NCBI GenBank assembly: GCA_951406725.2
Contig: OX597816.1
Span: forward strand, 167,710,001 to 167,774,000
DNA length: 64,000 nt
Source of the DNA: Octopus vulgaris
Taxonomy: Eukaryota
Reading direction: 5' to 3'
The notes beneath the pieces were generated by a model. The model was not told where the DNA came from, did no database searches, and saw only the letters and a program-made list of their open reading frames with translations. Both the position numbers and the translations under genes were made by a program. The number at the start of each line of letters is the position of its first letter. Within the stretch, counting starts at the first letter, position 1. This document shows, piece after piece, positions 7,893 through 61,790 of the stretch.

Positions 7893-8619
7893 ATTTCCTA
7901 AGGCAATACACATTTCATTAGTATTGTCATTTCTTTGGACAGATACTGTGACTTGATGATTCAGATTCCTGCATTCAAATGTTTCTTTACACATATGATC
8001 ACGGAACATATTATACACACCCTCAACAAAGGTCTTACGAAGTCCTTCTAAGGAGTTTATTCTTATTACTTCCCTCCTAGTTTCATCTCCTATTCTATTC
8101 TTTAACAAGACTTTTTTAAGCCATTTAACATTTTTGAAAATTTGTTTGGGAAAGAACTGACATAAATTGCTAGGCATTCTAAAAGGACCATCGTTTCTCT
8201 CATTGTAATCAATAGTGATATCAGTAACGCCAAATCCCAAAATTTTAGGCTCATCCTTTTCATGAAATGGGTAAATGCCACTTCTGAAATCATTCCGAAA
8301 CTGTTTATGTAAATAATTTATTAAATCACTTTCTCGAAGAATTGATGATGAATAGTAACGTAGTCGGAAGATGTATTTGTTCGAATTCTTTACACCAGGC
8401 TCCAGAGTTTTTGCCATGTTCAGCCAAGTTTTGCCATCTGTTTTCACAAGACCAAACAAATAGATATTGTTGGAAACAATAGAAAGCTGTTTTGCACATT
8501 GTATGCAAATATTTTCAACAGTTAGTGCAACATCTGTTTCAATACAAAACTTCTGCTTTTCATCATAACCCAAAATGCAGATACAGTTCTCCTTATTACA
8601 GTCATGTATAGGCAGCTCT
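7893..8619 (-). CDS. JAK: JAK FERM domain F1/F2 exon (727 bp)
   Basis: Motifs TVENICIQCAK..LFGL..W..YIFRLRYY..NYLHKQFRNDF..ILGFGVTDI align to the JAK FERM (JAK2 EEICIAASK..MFAL..YRIRFY..YLFAQWRHDF..CLGMAVLDM). Poly-T cag acceptor and gttagt donor. Confidence 0.88.
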
Positions 8620-9899
8620 CTGAAAAAAAAAGAAAAACAGAGAACATAAAATAATAAATGATAAAATGCTTTAGCGATTATGATGAAATAAATTTACATA
8701 CATATTTACATGTGTGTGTGTGTGTGTGTAAAATCTATATAACATAAGTTTGGATTTTTGTATGTTTTATTAAATGTTGTAGATAGATAATCATGAATTA
8801 TTTCCTTTCACTTAACTTGCACATGTACAGCTAATTATGAGAATTTATTGTTTACGTTTAATAATTTGAAAGTGAATTTAACGATGTACATTGTAATATC
8901 CGGAGATAAATACTGTATATCTATTTATTACACATTTTAGTTACTAAGAAAATATACATTAAAAAATTACATAGTTTTTACAAAAAGTAGAATATAATAT
9001 TATATAACTTTACGGTTTGTTATTACATAGGTTAGTACATACATGTATGTGGTTATTACATAGGTTAATACATGCATGTATATATGTATATGAGTGTATA
9101 TTTCCATAGGCTGAAACAGCTGTAAGTGATTTTAATGATTCTAACAATTTATATTAATGTTTTTTAATAACTACTTGTATTCTTATCCTAAATGTATTGA
9201 ATTTTATACTGTATATATGTATGTTATTATGGTTGTAGTTTTGATAATTAAATAAGTCAACATTCTAATATCCTAAAGCTGATAAACCAACTAATGTGTT
9301 TCTCCATTTTCTTATTTGTAATAATGGTAAAATATTGTAAAAAATTGTAATAATAGTAAAATATTTCTTTACCTTCACCCATTTAATACAATTGAGTTTA
9401 TTACAATAAAAAACTTGTGTATTAATAATTTGGGTACCAACAGTATACTGGATAAGTATTATCCCTTAGAGGGTTGATCCACAACCCCTAACTTACTTAT
9501 GGTATACTCTTTTACTCTCTTTTACTTTACTTGTCAGTCATTTTGAATCACCGCCTTTAGTCGAGCAAATCGACCCGGGACTTATTCTTTGTAAGCCCAG
9601 TGCTTATTCTATCGGTCTCTTTTGCCGAACCGCTAATGACGGGGTGAACACACCAGCATCGGTTGTCAAGCAACTAGGGGACAAACACAGACACACAAAC
9701 ACACACACACACACATATATACATATATACGACAGGCTTCTTTCAGTTTCCGTCTACCAAATCCACTCACAAGGCATCGGTTGGCCCAGGGCTATAGCAG
9801 AAGACACTTGCCCAAGATGCCACGCAGTGGGACTGAACCCAGAACCATGTGGTTGGTTAGCAAGCTACTTACCACACAGCCACTCCTGCGCCTATGTTA

Positions 9900-9963
<64 letters not shown>

Positions 9964-10193
9964 ATAATAATAAAGGGTAAAATTAATTTATCAATTAATA
10001 ATTTTACCAAGTAGTTTGGTATGTTAAAAGAATCATTATCAGTAACCTTATACAAAAATTCTATAATTATAACCATAATTATAATTAGGGTTAAGCAAAA
10101 TTTGCTTTACCACATAACGAAATTTAGAAATAGCAGTATGTGGTGAAGCAATTTTTGCTGAACCCTAATTATAATTATGCTTATAATTATAGA

Positions 10194-10233
<40 letters not shown>

Positions 10234-10965
10234 TGCCGGTGGTACGTAAGAGAACCATACAAACGTGGCCGTTACCAGCGCCACCCCGACTGGCCTTGTG
10301 CCGGTGGCACGTAAAAAGCACCAATCCGATCGTGGCTGTTTACCAGCCTCGTCTGGCACCTGTGCTGGTGGCACATAAAAATCACCCTCTACACTCACGG
10401 AGTGGTTGGTGTTAGGAAAGGCATCCAGCTGTAGAAACATTGCCAGATCAGAAAGGGCCTGGTGCAGCCTTCTGGCTTCCCAGACCCCAGTTGAACCGTC
10501 CAACCCATCCTAGCATGGAAAGCGGATGCTAAACAATGATAATGATATATATATATCAGTAGGTCATATAACTGAAAAAGAAGCATACTCTAAAACATTA
10601 GAGCAGTCATATATTTTTTTTAGGAAGTTAAATATTATGGCCATAGGGTGACCAATAGACACTCTATTACTGGCCATAGAATTTAACTTCCTAATATATA
10701 TTATATATATATAAAATACTGCAATACAAATGTATTACTTTCCAGTAAAATAAAGCACCGTAAAGGTAGAAGTATAAATATAGAATAGTGGTACAAGGCA
10801 CCAATATTAACAGGAAACAGCATTTGATACATTTATAATGCTATAGTATACTAGCATTGATGTAGCAACATTTGAAATATTGTCCAGGTGAATCCAGCTG
10901 ATGAAGACAATCGATTTTACATTATTTACAATTGATGGATATTTGTCCTCATCTTGTTTGTTGTT

Positions 10966-11011
10966 AACACAATGTTTCGGCTGATATACCCTCCAGCCTT
11001 CATCAGGTGTC
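10966..11011 (-). ncRNA. Minimal type I hammerhead motif, left arm of the inverted element
   Basis: gacac-CTGATGA-a-ggctg/cagcc-GAAA-ca-TT-gtgtt. Confidence 0.7.
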
Positions 11012-11058
11012 TTGGAGAAATTTTGAACCTGGGTTCTCATTCCTATGGTATTTTTCGA

Positions 11059-11093
<35 letters not shown>

Positions 11094-11300
11094 TCACTGC
11101 CTGGAAATGAACTCAGAATCTTGGGGTTAGTAGACTGCGCCCTTAACCACTACGCCATATGCCCATGGAAGTTAGGAGCGCGGGCTACTAACCCCAAGAT
11201 TCCGAGTTCGATTCCAGGCAGTGACCTGAATAATAATAATAATAATAATAATATCGAAAAATACCTTAGGAAGGAAAACCCAGGTTCAAAATTTCCCCAA

Positions 11301-11346
11301 GATTCATGATGAAGGCTGGAGGGTATATCAGCCGAAACGTTGTGTT
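11301..11346 (+). ncRNA. Minimal hammerhead motif, right arm, core mutated to ATGATGA
   Basis: ggctg/cagcc stem II, GAAACGTT palindromic stem III, gtgtt. Confidence 0.55.
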
Positions 11347-12064
11347 AACAACAAACAAGATGAGGACAAATATCTGTCAATTGTAAATAATGTAAATAAT
11401 GTACATAATTCCTCATCTCTTAAATATAGAACTGTAATCAATTTTATGTTGACAAATGTATTTGAAGAGTCCGAAACCTAGGTACTGGATTATCCAATTC
11501 TGGGTTGTTCATTTATCTAATGTTCTTCCTAGAGGTAACACAAAATTTTTCATGGTTGCTGCACTCACACGTCTTTGCCAGTATATACACAGTGAAGCTT
11601 TACTATAGCATCGTAAATGTATCAACTGCTATTTCCAGTAAATATTGGTGTCTTGTTGTACCACTGCTCTATATTTTTATATATATATAGGATACATCAA
11701 CATCATAATTAAAATCAAATGGAAATTGCAGTTGTGATACCCGTACTAGTGGCATATAAAAAACACCATCCGAACATGACCGATGTCAGCGCCGCCTTGA
11801 CTGGCTTCCATGCCGGTGACACATAAAAAGCAACAACTAATCATGGCTGTTACCAGCCTCCTCTGGCCCCTGTGCCAGTGGCACGTAAAAAGCACCCACT
11901 ACACACATGGAGTGATTGGCGATAGGAAGGGCATCCAGCTGTAGAAAAACTGCCAGATCAGACTGGAGCCTGGTGCAGCCTCTTGGCTTCCCAGACCACG
12001 GTCGAACCATCCAACCCATGCTAGCATAGAAAATGGATGTTAAACGATGATGATGATGATGATA

Positions 12065-13915
12065 TATAGGATACAGGTATACATAGCCAAGAGAGTAGCA
12101 GAAAAGAAGTTTGTCAATGTTCAGCAACGTGAGGACCAAAGAACTGATGGTGTGTGAGAGAAAACCATGATGTTGTAGGAGAGAAATGTGTCCACATGGA
12201 TGATGGTGCCCTTGTATTTAATGATTCTGCAAAGAAAGAGGCTTGGAGATGCCATTATGAATGACTGCTGAATGCGGAGAATGAATAGAAAGAGAGTCTG
12301 CCAAAGGTTGACCCAATTGAGGGACCAGCTACCCGAATCAACAGTACTCTGGTAGATAAAGCAATTAAGGATATGAAGACAAGGAAAGCACCTGGTCCAT
12401 CAGGACTCACCGCTGAGATGTTTAAAATATCAGGCAGTGTGTGTTATGTCTAGTCACTCGCAACATAAATCAGGTAGTTCATGAAGGAATCATACCCAAT
12501 GACTGGTGTAGCAGCACCATAGTCAACTGCTACAAAGATAAAGGCGATGCTTTAGATAGAAATAACTACAAGAGTATCAAATTATTGGATCAGGTGATAA
12601 AAGCTACAAAGAGGATCATAGTCCAACTAATTAGGGAGAGAGTTAAGCTAGATGAGATGCAGTTTGGTTTTGTGCCAGGCAGAAGCACCACTGATACTAT
12701 ATTTCTGGTAAGGCAACTGCAGGAGAAATACCTAGCCAAAGATAAACCTCTGTACTTGGCTTTTGTTGACTTGGAGAAAGCCTTTGACAGGGTCCCCCAA
12801 TCCCTTATCTGGTGATCAATGCAGAAACTGGAGATAAATGAGTGGTTGTTAAGAGCTGTACAAGCCCTGTACAGAGATGCTGTCAGTAAGGCTGGCAATG
12901 AGTATAGTAAAGAATTTTGAGTAGAAGTAAGGGTTCACCAAGGATCAGTCTTCAGCCCCCTCTTATTCATTATAGTCCTCCAGGCAATAACAGAGTAATT
13001 CAAGATGGGCTAACCCTGGGAGCTCCCCTATGCTGACGACCTTACTCTAATAGCTGAGTCGCTGCCAGAACTAGAGATGAAATTTAGGGTGTGGAAGCAA
13101 GGTCTAGAATCAAAGGGCCTTAGGGTTAACCTAGCAAAATCCAAAATCTTCAGATAGATGGCCCTGCTTGATCTGTAGAAAAGGTGTGGGTAGAAACTCC
13201 ATAAGATGTACCCAGTGTAAGCTATGGACACATAAAAGGTACAGTAATATGAAAGGAAGGTTAACCGGGAAGATAGTTTTTGTGCGTGGCAGACGTACAG
13301 GGGCAATAAACACTGAAGATTTACAGAAAATAGATTCCATCAAATGCTGGGAGGGAAAACTAGAAGTAGTTAATAGCTTCCGCTACCTAGGCGACCAATG
13401 CTCTGAGAATGTAGCAGCTAGAGTAAAAATAGCCTGGGAAAAGTTTAGGGAGCTCCTACCTCTGCTGGCACCTAAGGGCCTCTCGCTCAGGATGAAAGGT
13501 AGACTGTATGGTGCATGTGTGTGAACTGCCATGCTACACAGCAGTGAAACATAGGTCATGACTGCTGAGGACATGGGTAGGCTTGAAAGAAATGAAGCTA
13601 GTATGATATGCTGGATGTGTAATGTCAGTGTGCATACACAACAGAGAGTAAGTGCCCTGAGAGGAAAGTTGGGCATAGGAGGCATCAAACGTGGTGTGCA
13701 AAAGACGACTGCACTGGTATGGTCATGTGTTATGTATGGAGGAAGACAGCTGTGTGAGGAAGTTCCACGCCTTAACTGTGGAAGAGGTAGACTCAGGAAG
13801 ACATGGGATGAGGTGGTGAAGCAAGACCTTTGAACATCGGGCCTCACAGAGGCAATGACAGGAGACCAAGACCTTTGGGGATATGCTATGATTGAAAAGT
13901 TCCAGCAATTAAAGT
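12065..13915 (+). mobile_element. Older decayed RTE LINE copy (RT region)
   Basis: Colinear with 17210-19150, with many stops and deletions. Confidence 0.9.
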
Positions 13916-14058
13916 GAGATTGCATTGTATTAAAGTACAAGTGAAGATATATAAACCTCAGAGGGATAGAAATATCCAAGATTAGACTGGTTGAATACCT
14001 TATAATATAGGCATATACATAGATTATTATTATAAGAATCAAGAGAGAAGATGGAGAT

Positions 14059-14848
14059 CATCATCATCATCATTGTTCGAACATGGTCAAGACAATGGAA
14101 TTTACTATGCTACACCAGCTTCACGGTCCATCATAGCATTACGGAGGTCGTGTTGCTGGATGCCTGTATCCCTGGAGATTACATCAGGGTAGGAGAGTGT
14201 GCGCCCTCTGGTAACACAAATAGATGGCTTCCAGAGGAGAATAGCAGAAATTACCTCGTTTTCAGCTCTACAACAATGTCCAGCAAACTGGACTCTTCTA
14301 CCTTTCACAAGAGATGATACAGGTGGTAGTTTCCCATATATTTGTACTTTGGTTGGATGACGCTTCCACAAGAGATTTTGAGCTCTCATAAGGAGGTGAG
14401 TGTAAGTTCCATCCAACCGCCTCTCAAGCTTCTTCGATAACATCCAGGTTTCTGAGCCATATAGTAGAATTGGTTCGACTGTGGCTTTGAAGATTTTAAG
14501 TTTGAAATCTCTACTTAGATTTGATGACCAGATCTTATGCATATCATTACAGGCTGACCAGGCCATACCCTTTCTAGTTAGAAAATCTTTTTCAGATGAT
14601 GATATGTATGACCCAAGATATTTGTAATCAGAAACCATATTTAAGAGCGTATTGTCGAGAGTATGGATGATGAAATCACTGTTGGACAGACACTTGTTTA
14701 TATATTTTGAGCTCTCATAAGGAGGTGAGTGTAAGTTCCATCCAACCGCCTCTCAAGCTTCTTCGATAACGTCCAGGTTTCTGAGCCATATAGTAGAATT
14801 GGTTCGACTGTGGCTTTGAAGATTTTAAGTTTGAAATCTCTACTTAAG
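14059..14848 (-). mobile_element. Second copy of that RTE-like family, with an internally duplicated block at its 5' end
   Basis: Near-identical to 570-1200. TSD gatggagat at 14050-14058 and 14849-14857. About 14705-14846 repeats about 14376-14517. Confidence 0.9.
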
Positions 14849-15080
14849 GATGGAGATAAGATTAATAAAAATGTATTAATACACTGACAAGACCTACAAT
14901 TGTTTCGACTGATTCAAAACATCAATATGAATTGACAATATGAAATAACTCTTTTGGACTGATAAGGGACATTACAAGGTCTACCTAATGGTTAGTTTTT
15001 AAAAGTCTTAACCAAAACAAGCAACAGTGAAGAAGACAAAAAAGATGAAGGGGAAAGGAGGATTTAATTACAATACTGAC

Positions 15081-15139
15081 CCATTTGGTTTATGCTTCTT
15101 GAAAATGCTATTAACACAATTTCTTATATGTTCAGCCAT
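15081..15139 (-). CDS. JAK: JAK, first coding exon (MAEHIRNCVNSIFKKHKPN-G); exon spans 15081-15143
   Basis: ttctatttcag acceptor, ATG at 15139, GG|gtcagt donor. Phase 2 joins in frame to the 8619 exon. Confidence 0.7.
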
Positions 15140-15559
15140 ATTTCTGAAATAGAATATTGATAATATAGAGATTGTGACTGAAACAAGTAAAAGATAAAAT
15201 ATAAAAAGATGCATAAATACATACATATAGACCAGTGGTTGCCAAACTTTTTGGACCATCTACCCCCTTTAGCCACTTCTTCCGCATTGACCACCCTCCT
15301 CAGTTAAAATATCTTAACTCAAGTTATGTTGTACTGATTTTAAACCGATGTTAAACGATGATGATATATATATCATCATATATATACATATATATATACA
15401 CACACACACACACATATATATATTATACATATATATATATATATATATATATATTGATAGTAATAGTATGACAACAAAAGAGTGAATGAGACCTCAATAT
15501 TATGTAAATAGAGGAATTTGTCTGTAATATAATGTGACAATTATTCGGTTGCTACTGAA

Positions 15560-18500
15560 TAATTGTCACACTGTTCTCACCATCTACACCGGATACGCCC
15601 TACTCCCTCCTCCTCCCCCCCCTTCCTACCCCTTCTCCTCATATGCTTTCACTGTGAAAAGACAAGCTGCTAGCGCCACAGCTCATCAACTGCCCACTGA
15701 TCTTACGCTTCCTCCTGACACTGCCTCAATCCGACTATCTCCTCCCAGTCCCCTCCGTAATATCCTACATTTTTATTTCTTACGAACCTACACCAACCCT
15801 TCCTGCCATCGTTCCTCCTTACCCCAACCTTCCCCACTGGTGCTCCCCTATATTGACCGCACCCCCTCTACTATCTCTCCCTCTCTTTTCACTGGTAAAA
15901 CCTTTCTCAGCTGGACCCCCCCAACTCAACTCTAGAATATCTGTATTTTTCCTCCTTACTACGCTACCTAATTACGTTACTCAGTGACGATAACGAATGT
16001 CCACTGCTAACACCAGCTCCTGTCCACGGTGTGGACAGGTCGGAAGAGAGATCAAAAGAAAAATGCTACGAAAACTATCACCACCACAACAACCCTCCTC
16101 TTCTCAGGCGCTGAATTCCCCCCTCCCCCCCACATCTCCTTCCCAGTTTTCAGAGTTGGCACTATCAATGTTGGTACATTGACAGGCAAATCTAGTGAGA
16201 TTGTAGAGAAGACAGGTTGATGTATGCTGCATACAAGAGGTAAGATGGAGAGGTGCTTCGGCTAGGGTCCTCACGGGCAAGGCACTTAGGTACAAACTCT
16301 TCTGGCAAGGTAACGTGGAAGGTGTAGGGGGTGTAGGCATTCTCCTTGCGGAGAAATGGGTGGATGAGGTCATAGAGGTTGTCAGGGTTTGCGATAGAGT
16401 GCTTAAGCTCAGGTTGGTCCTACAGAGTGGCACAGCTATGATTATCTCCGCCTATGCCCCACAAGCGGGACTACCAAATGATCAGAAGGACAACTTTTAT
16501 GATAGCCTTCTGCAGGCTACTTCAAAGACTAGTAGCAAGGACCTCATCTTTGTAGGTGGAGATTTTAATGGGCATGTTGGGCGGGAATCGGGTATCTTCA
16601 CTGGGGTACATGGTGGCTATGGTATTGGCACCAGAAATGATGAGGGAACTAGACTGCTGGAATTCTGTGATGCATGTAACCTTTCAATCTGCAACACTAA
16701 CTTCAAGAAGCCAGTCTGTCACCTTATAACTTATCAGTCAGGAGACTCCGCTAGCCAAATAGACTTCATCCTCACCAGACAGCAGGATGCAGGGTTGCTC
16801 TTGAATACAAAGACCCTCCCGGGTGAAGAATGTATCCCTCAGCATAGACTAATCATCAGTGACTTTAAGCTTGAGGCCAGAAGGACTCCAAGAAACAAAC
16901 CAATCCAGAAAAGAAGGATTTGGAGGCTAAAGAACCCTTCACATGGTCAGAAATTTAGGGACATACTCATCAAGAAATTTGATGAGAGGGAGGAGCTTCA
17001 GACGTCAGACATAGAAGGTAGCTGGGAATTCCTACGGGACAGCTTGCTGAGTGCCACAGACCGAGTCTGTGGATGGTGCAAAGTCCCTTCCAGACCTAGA
17101 ATTACGTGGTGGTGGAATAGTGCAGTAGATAAAGCCATCTGTAAAAAAGACGGGCCTGGGCCTGGAAGGATGGGGGCAGCAGGGAACTGTACCAGATAGC
17201 CAAAAGGGAGGCTGGGCGGCAGGTATACATAGCCAAAGACGTAGCAGAAAAGAAGAAGTTTGCCAATGTCCAGCGACGCGAGGATCAAAGAGCTGAAGTA
17301 TTTCGGATTGCCAGACAGTGTGTCAGAGAAAATAGTGATGTTATAGGAGAGAAATGTGTCCGCATGGATGATGGGGCACTTGCTTTTACTGCTAGTGAAA
17401 AGAAAGAGGCTTGGAGAAGCCATTATGAAAGACTACTGAATGAGGAGAATGAATGGGAGGAGGAGAGCCTGCCAAAAGTTGACCCAGTAGAGGGACCAGC
17501 TACCCGAATAGACAGCTCCCTTGTAGATAAGGCAATTAAGGATATGAAACCAGGCAAAGCCCCTGGCCTATCAGGAATCACTGCTGAGATGCTTAAAACA
17601 GCTGGCTATGTGGGCTATACCATAGTCACCCGCATTGTAAACCAGGTAGTTCACAATGGAGTCATACCCAATGACTGGTGCAACAGCACCATAGTCAACT
17701 GCTACAAGGGTAAGGGTGATGCTCTAGATAGAAATAACTACAGAGGTATCAAACTGTTGGACCAGGTGATGAAGGTCTCAGAGAAGGTCATAACCCATCT
17801 CATTAGGGAGAGAATTTGTTTAGATGAAATGCAGTTCGGTTTTGTACCAGGTAGAAGCACCACTGATGCTATATTCCTGGTCTGACAACTGCAGGAGAAG
17901 TACCTAGCTAAAGATAAACCCCTCTACATAGCTTTTGTAGACTTGGAGAAAGCCTTTGACAGGGTTCCCCGTTCCCTCATCTGGTGGTCGATGCGGAAAC
18001 TGGAGATTGAAGAATGGCTAATAAGGGCTGTACAGGCTCTATACAGAGAGGCTGTCAGCAAGGTTAGGATTGGCAACGAATATAGTGAAGAATTCCGGGT
18101 AGAAGTAGGTGCGCACCAGGGCTCAGCCCTCAGTCCCCTTTTATTCATCATAGTCCTTCAGGCAATAACAGAGGAATTCAAAACGGGATGCCCCTGGGAG
18201 CTCCTCTATGCTGATGACCTAGCTCTCATAGCAGAATCACTACCGGAACTGGAAAAGAAATTTCGGGTGTGGAAGCAAGGGTTGGAATCAAAGGGCCTTA
18301 GAATAAATGTAGCAAAGACCAAAGTATTAGTAAGCAGCAAGAGGTACTCAGCACACACACCCTCGGGTAGGTGGCCCTGCTCAATCTGTAGGAAAGGTAC
18401 AGGTAGAAACTCCATAAGATGCACCCAATGTAAGTTATGGACACATAAGAGGCGCAGCAACATTAAAGGGAAATTAACAGATAAGATAGCTTTCATGTGC

Positions 18501-19497
18501 AGCAGATGCACAGGGACAATAGACACAACAGACACTCAGAAAACAGATTCCATCACACTCCAGGGAGAGAAACTAGAAGTAGTTGATAGTTTCCGCTACC
18601 TGGGTGACCAAGTTAGTAGCGGAGGTGGATGCACAGAGAGTATCACCACTAGAATACGAATAGCCTGGGCAAAGTTCAGAAAGCTCCTACCCCTACTGGC
18701 AACAAAAGGTCTCTCCCTCAGAGCGAAAGGTAGATTGTATGATGCATGTGTGCGAACTGCCATGCTTCACGGTAGTGAAACATGGGCAGTGACTGCAGAG
18801 GACATGCGTAGACTTGAAAGAAATGAAGCTAGCATGATCCGCTGGATGTGTAGTGTCAGTGTGCACGCAAGACAGAGTGTAAGCATCCTAAGAGAAATGC
18901 TGGATATAAGAAGCATCAGATGTGGTGTGCAAGAGCGACGCTTGCAATGGTATGGTCATGTGATGCGGATGGATGAAGAGAGATGTGTGAAGAAGTGCCA
19001 CTCCCAAACAGTTGAAGGTATCAGGGGTAGAGGTAGACCCAGGAAGACATGGGATGAGGTAGTCAAGCATGACCTCAGAGCATTGGGCCTCACTGAGGCA
19101 ATGGCGAAAGACCGAGATCTCTGGAGATATGCTGTGACTGCAAAGACCCGGGCTGCTTTCTGCAGCAATTCCACATACCCCCTACCCATTCAAAGTACCC
19201 CGGATCCCCAAAGTACCCCGGACCCAGTTGCCCCCGTGCTGCTGGCACGTTAAAAGCTCGAACCGATCGCGACCAATGCCGGACGCCCCGGCCCCTGTGC
19301 AGGTGGCACGTAAAAAGCACCCAATCCACTCACGTAGTGGCTGGCGTTAGGAAGGGCATCCAGCCGTAGAAACTCTGCCAAATCAGACTGGAGCCTGGAG
19401 CGGCCCCTGGCTTCCAAGACCCCGGTCGAACCGTCCAACCCGTGCTAGCGCGGAAAACGGACGTTAAACGATGATGATGATGATGATGATGATGATT
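15560..19497 (+). mobile_element. Near full-length RTE-clade LINE (APE endonuclease + RT + PHD insert + 3'UTR + (GAT)n tail), inactivated
   Basis: VGTINVG, IQE, GDFNGH, SQIDFIL, QHR (APE); QFGF, DLEKAFD, QGS, YADD, YLG, LHGSETW (RT). Frameshifts near 16210 and 17150 and a TGA at 17883. 5' boundary approximate. Confidence 0.92.
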
Positions 19498-24116: not shown

Positions 24117-25802
24117 TCATCATCATTCATCGTTTAACGTCCGTTTTCCGCGCTAGCACAGGTTGGACGGTTCGAAGGGGTCTGGGAAGCCAGGGGCTGC
24201 TCCAGGCTCCAGTCTGATCTGGCAGAGTTTCTATGGCTGGATGCCCTTCCTAACGCCAACCACTCCGCGAGTGTAGTGGGTGCTTTTTACATGCCACCTG
24301 CACAGGTGCCGGGGGGGGGGGGGTCCGGCTTCGGTCACGATCGGTTGGAGCTTTTAACGTGCCAGCGGCATGGAAACCAGCCAAGGCGGCGCTGGCAACG
24401 TTCGGATGGTCTTTTTATGTGCCACCGGCACAGGAGCCAGTCGGGGGGGCACTGGCATCGGCCACATTTGGATAGTGCTTTTTATGTGCCACCGGCACAG
24501 GCATCACAACTACTATTTCCATTGATATTTATTTCAACGTTCATGTTCATGTACTTGACTCAACAGGTCTCCTCAAGCACAGCGGGACGTTCTGGGATCC
24601 GGGGTACTTTGAATGGGTAGGGGCTATGCGGAACTGATGCTGAAAGCAGCCCAGGTCTTTGCAGTCACAGCATATCTCCAGAGATCTCGGTCCTTCGCCA
24701 TTGCCTCAGTGAGGCCCAACGCTCTGAGGTCATGCTTGACTACCTCATCCCATGTCTTCCTGGGTCTACCTCTCCCCCTGATACCTTCAACTGTTTGGGA
24801 GTGGCACTTCTTCATACATCTCTCCTCATCCATCCGCAGCACATGACCATACCATCGCAAGCGTCGCTCTTGCACACCACATCTGATGCTTCTTATATCC
24901 AGCATTTCTCTCAGGGTGCTTACACTCTGTCGTGCGTGCACACTGACATTACACATCCAGCGGATCATGCTAGCTTCATTTCTTTCAAGTCTACGCATGT
25001 CCTCTGCAGTCACAGCCCATGTTTCACTACCGTGAAGCATGGCAGTTCGCACACATGCATCATACAATCTACCTTTCGCTCTGAGGGAGAGACCCTTTGT
25101 CGCCAGTAGGGGTAGGAGCTTTCTGAACTTTGCCCAGGCTATTCGTATTCTAGTGGTGATACTCTCTGTGCATCCACCTCCACTGCTAACTTGGTCACCC
25201 AGGTAGCGGAAACTATCAACTACTTCTAGTTTCTCTCCCTGGAGTGTGATGGAATCTGTTTTCTGAGTGTCTGTGGTGTCTATTGTCCCTGTGCATCTGC
25301 CGCACATGAAAGCTATCTTATCTGTTAATTTCCCTTTAATGTTGCTGCACCTCTTGTGCGTCCATAGCTTACATTGAGTGCATCTTATGGAGTTTCTACC
25401 TACACCTTTCCTACAGATCGAGCAGGGCCACCTGCCCAAGGGGGTGTGTGCTGAGTTCGCCTTTCTGCTTACTATAACTTTGGTCTTTGCTACAATTACT
25501 CTAAGGCCCTTTGATTCTAACCCTTGCTTCCACACCCGAAATTTCTTTTCTAGTTCCGGTAGTGATTCTGCTATGAGAGCCAGGTCATCAGCATAGAGGA
25601 GCTCCCAGGGGCATCCTGTTTTGAATTCCTCTGTTATTGCCTGGAGGACTATGATGAATAAAAGGGAACTGAGGGCTGGGCCTTGGTGCACACCTACTTC
25701 TACCCGGAATTCTTCACTATATTCGTTGCCAATCCTAACCTTGCTGACAGACTCTCTGTATAGAGCCTGTACAGCCCTTATTAGCCATTCGTCAATCTCC
25801 AG
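24117..25802 (-). mobile_element. 5'-truncated young copy of the same RTE, inserted in the (TA)n of a SINE
   Basis: 355-aa ORF nearly identical to 17943-19253; (CAT)n tail at 24117. SINE halves flank it at 23946-24115 and 25805-26060. Confidence 0.93.
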
Positions 25803-61354: not shown

Positions 61355-61790
61355 TACCTCTAATCCCATCTAGGAGTGATGGACAGTGATGTTTCGACAT
61401 TTTTGTGGCTTATCAACATCACTTACCAAACAAAATCATCTCCCTTCAACAAGTCATCCTAATGAGACGTCTGCATTGGTTGGGTCATGCCCTCCGTCGT
61501 CAGCCAGGAGAATTCATCTACGAAGCAACTACCCCAGCTCCCCTTCAGGGTTGGCGAAAGCAAAGTGGGGGACACCAAAAAGCTGGCTGATGACAGTCAA
61601 GGCTGATCTGGAACCCAACCTAGGCCCCCATATCTATGGCGTTCGCCGCTGGAATAAGGAGTGGTTGGAGATCACGCGGTCGTTAGCCTCAAATCGCCAG
61701 GTCTGGTTGGTGTTAGTGAGAGATGCAGCATTGAGGATGAATGAAGCCAGCTCAACCCACCCCGGGTGAATGCTGTCTCAAGACAAGACT
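61355..61790 (+). mobile_element. RTE-type LINE 3' fragment (third family)
   Basis: RRLHWLGHALRR..W...V..DL. Confidence 0.7.

What the first reader, a model, noticed from the sequence alone, without database searches (positions are those of the whole stretch)
10891..11491. A hammerhead ribozyme interrupted by another hammerhead element (nested ribozymes)
Removing 10920-11435 and one TSD copy rebuilds aatccag-CTGATGA-agac-(about 33-nt loop)-gtcc-GAAA-cctagg-TA-ctggatt. This has a perfect 7-bp stem I, an intact core and a palindromic ACCUAGGU stem III. The host is itself an inverted-repeat element (10777-10850 versus 11600-11680). Because the insert is a self-contained hairpin sitting in the stem II loop, the outer ribozyme could still fold. 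Inference: ribozyme elements may preferentially target each other. Also, the minus-strand hammerhead (10966-11011) is in the sense of the JAK pre-mRNA intron and could cut it.
Basis: partly seen in the sequence, partly recalled or inferred. Interest (0 to 1): 0.75.

Follow-up and report, generated by a model that had tools for sequence, protein, structure and literature searches.

The report
Chance nesting of two ribozyme retroelements
The end piece of a common jumping gene sits inside the self-cutting RNA motif of an older repeat, in an intron of the JAK gene; the nesting is real, but it is most likely an ordinary chance landing in AT-rich DNA, and all three ribozymes there are predicted to be unable to cut.

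Summary
The nesting is real. Uninterrupted copies of the host family join the two halves, and a 12-bp target-site duplication flanks the insert. The insert (10921-11434/5) is a back-to-back pair of the 3' end (pLTR) of a Penelope-like retrotransposon; longer relatives carry RT and GIY-YIG. It has about 15,000 insertions (estimate), AT-rich targets and a tail on one arm only. The host (about 10712-11680) is an older, retrozyme-like element with a roughly 430-bp unit and a covarying type I hammerhead. Both lie in a 6,461-nt JAK intron that is spliced in contigs of four runs. This junction occurs once in the genome; none of 66 other candidate junctions completes a split hammerhead; 0 of 90 sampled inserts sit in the host family. 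Chance alone predicts about 0.2 such events. The outer helix II is not predicted to form around the insert, and that ribozyme is antisense to JAK. The JAK-sense hammerhead has a broken helix III palindrome and is predicted to be buried in the insert's long hairpin (+62 kcal/mol). The scan described the inner family before, on other DNA.

The parts
10712..11680 (+). Host element: older non-coding, retrozyme-like hammerhead repeat (unit about 430 bp) inserted as an inverted arm plus forward copy, flanked by (TA)n on both sides
10712..10848 (-). Inverted arm of the host element (pairs with 11601-11679 over its inner part)
10891..10909 (+). 5' half of the host type I hammerhead: helix I 5' strand, CUGAUGA core, start of helix II
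10909..10920 (+). Left copy of the 12-bp AT-rich target-site duplication
10921..11435 (.). Insert: back-to-back pair of the 3' end (pLTR) of a Penelope-like retrotransposon; folds as one long hairpin
10921..11170 (-). Left arm of the insert: tRNA-like head, (AAT)n, body, minimal hammerhead; no tail
10966..11011 (-). Minimal hammerhead in JAK sense; G16.2 changed to A (helix III palindrome broken); predicted sequestered in the hairpin
11171..11435 (+). Right arm of the insert: 5'-truncated head, (AAT)n, body, minimal hammerhead, plus tail
11302..11347 (+). Second minimal hammerhead; C3 changed to A and two helix I changes
11397..11435 (+). Tail of about 38 nt, present on one arm only (Penelope-like signature)
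   Evidence: PMC8557442 passage
11436..11447 (+). Right copy of the target-site duplication
11448..11491 (+). 3' part of the host hammerhead: rest of extended helix II, GAAA, palindromic helix III, cleavage triplet, helix I 3' strand
8620..15080 (-). JAK intron (6,461 nt, GT-AG) between the exon with the likely start codon (15081-15144) and the FERM F1 exon (7893-8619)

Best explanation
A back-to-back pair of Penelope-like retrotransposon ends sits in helix II of an older retrozyme-like hammerhead element inside a JAK intron; it most likely landed there by chance in AT-rich DNA, and the three ribozymes at the site are predicted to be inactive. Shown: nesting, target-site duplication, family identities, intron position. 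Inferred mechanism: the element's GIY-YIG endonuclease made staggered nicks about 12 bp apart in AT-rich DNA; reverse transcription began at two sites in the RNA, which leaves one tailed and one untailed arm; the product was 5'-truncated and inverted. The host had inserted earlier, probably by the same kind of machinery, into a (TA)n run. Since then both have decayed as passive intron sequence.
For: Empty sites exist. Longer relatives of the insert continue upstream into GIY-YIG (feature score 0.97) and RT (E 5.8e-8) coding sequence. Of 90 sampled insert loci 49 have an upstream inverted copy; in 46 of these exactly one arm has the tail, 1 has neither, 2 are unresolved (my count). 24 of 36 other resolved pairs have a duplication of 9 nt or more at the junction (my count). 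The 12 nt after the tail are 77% AT (61 ends) against 60% for the window. AT-rich cleavage and the two-start-site origin of the tail were shown in vitro for an anole element (PMC11167929, passages). The junction is unique; 0 of 66 other candidates complete a hammerhead while the test does recover this locus; 0 of 90 inserts lie in the host family. Chance expectation is about 0.17 inside this family's ribozyme and about 1.3 anywhere in the element (my arithmetic). Folding. The host arms are more diverged (83.5-88%) than the insert arms (92-93%), as expected for an older host.
Against: The searches see only ends with exact 14-19-nt motifs (about half of them), within a 31-nt range. The far end of roughly half of the candidates could not be resolved, so a split hammerhead of another family could be missed. 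For the host family alone the bound on preference is weak, because only about 0.01 further events were expected in the searched subset. Energy models ignore tertiary contacts and proteins, and they also give low probability to the full hammerhead fold in uninterrupted copies (+2.7 to +10.3 kcal/mol). No autonomous partner was found for the host family.
Confidence: 0.88

Rival explanations
1. Penelope-like machinery prefers the DNA of hammerhead-bearing elements, because elements that use the same endonuclease share recognition features, so ribozyme elements nest in each other more often than chance gives.
For: The insert sits inside the 60-70 nt of the ribozyme, where the chance expectation for this family is about 0.17 (my arithmetic). 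[quoted passage not shown]
Against: One junction genome-wide, this one. Tail followed by the reverse core word: 20 sites, against 17, 12 and 8 for three control words (my count) and about 25 expected from background. Tail followed by CYGAAAC: 19 sites against about 36 expected. None of 66 other candidates completes a split hammerhead or shows the inner family's own ribozyme in the near flank. 0 of 90 inserts in the host family.
Confidence: 0.06
2. The minus-strand hammerhead cuts the JAK pre-mRNA in its first coding intron and so tunes JAK expression.
For: The motif is in pre-mRNA sense inside a confirmed intron. Alone, or with only its own arm, it folds helices I and II (probabilities 0.7-0.95; +1.4 to +1.5 kcal/mol).
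Against: In transcription order the complementary arm is made first; with it the fold costs 62 kcal/mol and the helix probabilities are 0.00. G16.2 is changed to A, which breaks the palindrome needed for the dimer form (the intact form is in 48 of 90 copies, this variant in 14 of 90). Minimal hammerheads showed no cleavage as single motifs and low cleavage as dimers (PMC4209133, parts 1-2). Contigs of four runs span the intron as a normal splice, which does not exclude partial cutting.
Confidence: 0.02
3. The outer ribozyme still folds around the 515-nt hairpin and cleaves an antisense transcript, making a natural ribozyme with a large inserted domain.
For: Helix I is perfect over 7 bp and forms in the 613-nt context (probabilities 0.81-1.00); a constrained fold with the insert as a side arm exists.
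Against: Helix II is reduced to 3 bp above an A.C mismatch and has probability 0.00 (+8.0 to +11.5 kcal/mol for the whole fold, against +2.7 to +3.5 for three uninterrupted copies of the same subfamily with short flanks). Helix III is a short palindrome that needs a second copy. No evidence for a plus-strand transcript was obtainable.
Confidence: 0.04

Closest known systems
Penelope/Poseidon-type Penelope-like elements and their pLTRs (Craig et al. 2021, PMC8557442, passages; anole Poseidon, PMC11167929, passages)
   Same: RT followed by C-terminal GIY-YIG in longer relatives; 5' truncation; inverted 5'-truncated copy next to the element; 30-40-bp tail at one end only; hammerhead in the pLTR; AT-rich targets.
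   Different: Only the non-coding end is present here. The repeat begins with a tRNA-like head and (AAT)n, which the passages I read do not describe. Clade placement was not tested with a tree.
Minimal type I hammerheads of animal PLEs (Cervera and De la Pena 2014, PMC4209133, parts 1-2 of 4)
   Same: Inner family: short helix I (5 bp), an extra base between 9 and 10.1, G10.1-C11.1, palindromic 15.2-16.2, and two motifs 100-700 bp apart on opposite strands.
   Different: Helix II is 5-6 bp rather than 7-8. Both copies at this locus carry core changes.
Animal non-LTR retrozymes (Cervera and De la Pena 2020, PMC7229834, passages; Li, Clavereau and Pollet 2026, 10.64898/2026.07.22.740005, part 1 of 5 and passages)
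   Same: Host family: short non-coding repeat with a type I hammerhead, palindromic helix III, partial tandem organisation, low GC; intronic copies are common (about 42-44% in Xenopus).
   Different: Unit about 430 bp (above the 170-400 nt reported), extended helix II, copies mostly under two units with inverted arms in (TA)n. Circular RNA and cleavage are not shown.
Ordinary nested transposon insertion (general knowledge, recalled)
   Same: A younger, high-copy element splits an older one and leaves a target-site duplication.
   Different: Both partners happen to carry hammerheads.

Membership tests
Penelope-like element pLTR (insert) | Linked to an ORF with RT and C-terminal GIY-YIG endonuclease | tested here: met
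   10 of 70 head matches share upstream sequence that encodes a GIY-YIG-like protein (Pfam itself gave no hit); L210 continues into RVT_1, E 5.8e-8.
Penelope-like element pLTR (insert) | Inverted 5'-truncated copy adjacent to the element | tested here: met
   Present in the window and in 49 of 90 sampled loci.
Penelope-like element pLTR (insert) | 30-40-bp tail at one end only | tested here: met
   11397-11435 in the window; 46 of 49 pairs have exactly one tailed arm (my count).
Penelope-like element pLTR (insert) | Insertion into AT-rich DNA | tested here: met
   77% AT after 61 tail ends against 60% in the window.
Penelope-like element pLTR (insert) | RT phylogeny within the Penelope/Poseidon clade | not tested
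Minimal type I hammerhead (inner family) | Core, extra base at 9/10.1, G10.1-C11.1, palindromic 15.2-16.2 | tested here: met
   Met for the family: 2,166 exact core matches, palindrome in 48 of 90 sampled copies.
Minimal type I hammerhead (the two copies at this locus) | Intact core and helix III palindrome | tested here: not met
   Left copy G16.2 to A; right copy C3 to A with two helix I changes.
Type I hammerhead (host family) | Three helices around the core, with compensatory changes | tested here: met
   89% of cells paired in 52 copies; 2 helix I pairs change on both sides (26 cells, a few events, mostly one subfamily split); the helix III palindrome is kept at two lengths; slid controls 17-37% paired.
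Type I hammerhead (host family) | Paired 10.1-11.1 | tested here: inconclusive
   A-U or G-U in 26 of 52 copies, unpaired in 26 of 52; A.C at this locus.
Non-LTR retrozyme (host family) | Non-coding short unit in tandem | tested here: inconclusive
   Period 425-431 bp in L005, L016, L167; partial tandems only; no GIY-YIG upstream in the rows shown and no PLE-linked ORF.
Non-LTR retrozyme (host family) | Two consecutive units with complete hammerheads, circular RNA, self-cleavage | not testable with these tools
   No array with two complete same-strand ribozymes was looked for genome-wide; only assembled contigs were available for RNA.

The most novel reading that the evidence does not exclude
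Penelope-like endonucleases have a real preference for the AT-rich helix II DNA of other hammerhead retroelements, so ribozyme parasites disable each other, and this locus is one visible case; the tests here argue against a strong bias but cannot exclude a few-fold one.
Probability: 0.07. Interest if true: 0.5.

Novelty: new member of a known kind. Interest (0 to 1): 0.17.

Why it matters
As it stands it matters little: it is a clean, datable example of one Penelope-mobilised element splitting another, and it orders the two families in time. It would matter if insertion into ribozyme DNA were preferred, because the target rules of Penelope-like elements are poorly known, or if an intronic hammerhead cut JAK pre-mRNA. 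Neither is supported here.

Tried and rejected
Rfam found no hammerhead at the locus; its only hammerhead match was a sub-threshold HH9 at 61359-61434. ARAGORN found no tRNA gene in the window, so the head is tRNA-like by eye only. My first reading of the insert as a stand-alone tRNA SINE was dropped. Search for an autonomous partner of the host: 54 ORFs from flanks gave only unrelated LINE and transposase pieces; no GIY-YIG upstream in the rows shown. One search used a mis-registered structure string and is void; one search replaces it. No holder was on record as RNA ('no RNA holder listed'; RNA status is a guess), and all runs were contigs, so transcript ends, strand and cleavage could not be read. 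No empty-site joint was among the joints listed, but 649 rows were not shown, so this says nothing about polymorphism. In one search, 7 of 59 host copies were left out (length variants and one with a divergent 3' end). Literature searches for nested or mutually targeting hammerhead elements gave nothing relevant; searches found no paper on these families; the library lacks most subscription papers, and supplements were not read. Look-ups of earlier findings by the host sequence and by words for nesting were empty.

Full report
Observation. A search of the window's own genome with the left half returned many copies, and in most of the 29 other loci the left-half match runs directly into the right-half match. 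A strict pattern for the uninterrupted ribozyme finds 7 copies, and 0 for the reversed control. A 17-nt right-half motif occurs 222 times; of 41 such loci examined, 37 have the left half contiguous, 1 is a chance match, 3 lack it, and none carries the inner element in the loop. The duplication at the insert's ends is 10909-10920 versus 11436-11447, 12 bp with 2 mismatches.

The insert. It is a palindrome with arms 92-93% complementary. Each arm has a tRNA-like head (by eye; ARAGORN finds no tRNA), an (AAT)n run, a body and a minimal hammerhead. The 33-nt ribozyme core has 2,166 exact matches and the 18-nt tail end 6,214. Since 26 of 62 tailed loci have the exact 18-mer, I estimate about 15,000 tailed insertions. 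I first read it as a SINE. The insertion anatomy matches Penelope-like elements as described in PMC8557442 (passages): 49 of 90 sampled loci have an upstream inverted copy, and in 46 of these exactly one arm has the 30-40-nt tail, 1 has neither and 2 are unresolved (my count; two of the 90 are the two arms of one locus). 24 of 36 other resolved pairs have a duplication of 9 nt or more at the junction (my count). The 12 nt after the tail are 77% AT against 60% in the window. PMC11167929 (passages) shows AT-rich cleavage and two reverse-transcription start sites that define the tail. The ribozyme fits the minimal type of PMC4209133 (parts 1-2 read).

The host. It spans about 10712-11680, with an inverted left arm 10712-10848 and (TA)n on both sides. 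Its unit is 425-431 bp in three partial tandems. I found no coding partner. Its hammerhead is a real family feature: in 52 aligned copies (of 59 extracted) 89% of cells pair, two helix I pairs change on both sides, and the helix III palindrome is kept at two lengths; slid controls pair 17-37%. These changes reflect a few events, mainly one subfamily split. The '33-nt loop' is an extended helix II. Position 10.1-11.1 is unpaired in 26 of 52 copies and A.C here. The host works like an animal non-LTR retrozyme (PMC7229834, passages; 10.64898/2026.07.22.740005, part 1 and passages), but circular RNA and two-ribozyme arrays were not shown, so membership is open. Its arms are 83.5-88% alike, more diverged than the insert's, which fits an older host. 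If the calibration in PMC13282606 (passage: distance 0.09 = 25 My) applies to this genome, which I only infer to be an octopus, the insert is roughly 10 My old and the host roughly twice that.

Do ribozyme elements target each other? The exact junction type (tail, then the host's right half) occurs once in 2.8 Gb, at this locus. None of 90 sampled inserts has host sequence within about 700 nt. Tail followed by the reverse core word occurs at 20 sites, against 17, 12 and 8 for three control words (my count of 57 distinct sites) and about 25 expected from background. Tail followed by CYGAAAC occurs at 19 sites against about 36 expected. A core word just before an untailed arm occurs at 28 sites including this one (7,688 such arm motifs in all). 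I tested these 20 + 19 + 27 = 66 other candidates (one site appears in two sets) for a completing half with helix I and II pairing: none passed, and the test recovers this locus. Limits: only ends with exact motifs were seen, roughly half of the far ends were unresolved, and for the host family alone the bound is weak. A strong general preference is unlikely; a few-fold one is not excluded.

Can the ribozymes still work? For the outer one, helix I forms in the 613-nt native RNA (0.81-1.00) but not reliably with longer flanks (0.00-0.37); helix II has probability 0.00 in all three contexts, against 0.94-1.00 in six isolated uninterrupted copies. The full fold costs 8.0-11.5 kcal/mol here, 2.7-3.5 in three same-subfamily copies and 8.6-9.9 in three copies of the other subfamily, whose helix III cannot close as a monomer. 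It also needs a dimer partner and is antisense to JAK. For the minus-strand inner ribozyme, the isolated motif folds (+1.4 kcal/mol), but in the pre-mRNA the complementary arm is transcribed first and the fold costs 62 kcal/mol; G16.2 is changed to A, which breaks the palindrome. The plus-strand copy has C3 changed to A and costs 72 kcal/mol in context. Single minimal hammerheads did not cleave in PMC4209133. These are predictions, not assays.

JAK. Pfam finds FERM_F1, Jak1_Phl and a weak SH2 in minus-strand frames. Contigs of four runs from four studies, whose RNA status is a guess, join 15081 to 8619 across a GT-AG intron of 6,461 nt; the upstream exon holds an in-frame ATG.

Verdict. Observation confirmed; interpretation partly supported. 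This is most likely an ordinary nested insertion of a high-copy Penelope-like end into an older ribozyme repeat. I found no paper on nested or mutually targeting hammerhead elements, but one chance event does not make a system. Interest 0.17; new member of a known kind.

Noticed in passing
window 10921-11396: The insert forms a hairpin of about 230 bp in the JAK intron on either strand. Such double-stranded RNA is a likely A-to-I editing substrate (inference); contigs could not test it.
   Followed up: no
   Followed up: partly
host family, alignment A1 (e.g. L003 versus L165): Two subfamilies differ by a compensatory helix I change and by the length of the helix III palindrome; one has A.C at 10.1-11.1 in most copies. 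The family was not found among earlier notes and has no identified coding partner.
   Followed up: partly
window 61359-61434 (-): Weak Rfam Hammerhead_HH9 match, 33.4 bits against a gathering score of 52; looks like a decayed motif.
   Followed up: no
window 16207-19250 (+) and 24627-25802 (-): LINE remnants with endonuclease, RT and a C-terminal PHD-like match.
   Followed up: no
window 10049-10204 and 10613-10701: Two further short hairpin elements next to the finding.
   Followed up: no
window 10229-10556 and 11739-12067: Two same-orientation copies of a very abundant SINE-like repeat with about 65-nt subunits flank the host.
   Followed up: no
L196, just beyond the insert's tail: An unsplit hammerhead-like core of another sequence lies about 20 nt from an insert end.
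   Followed up: no
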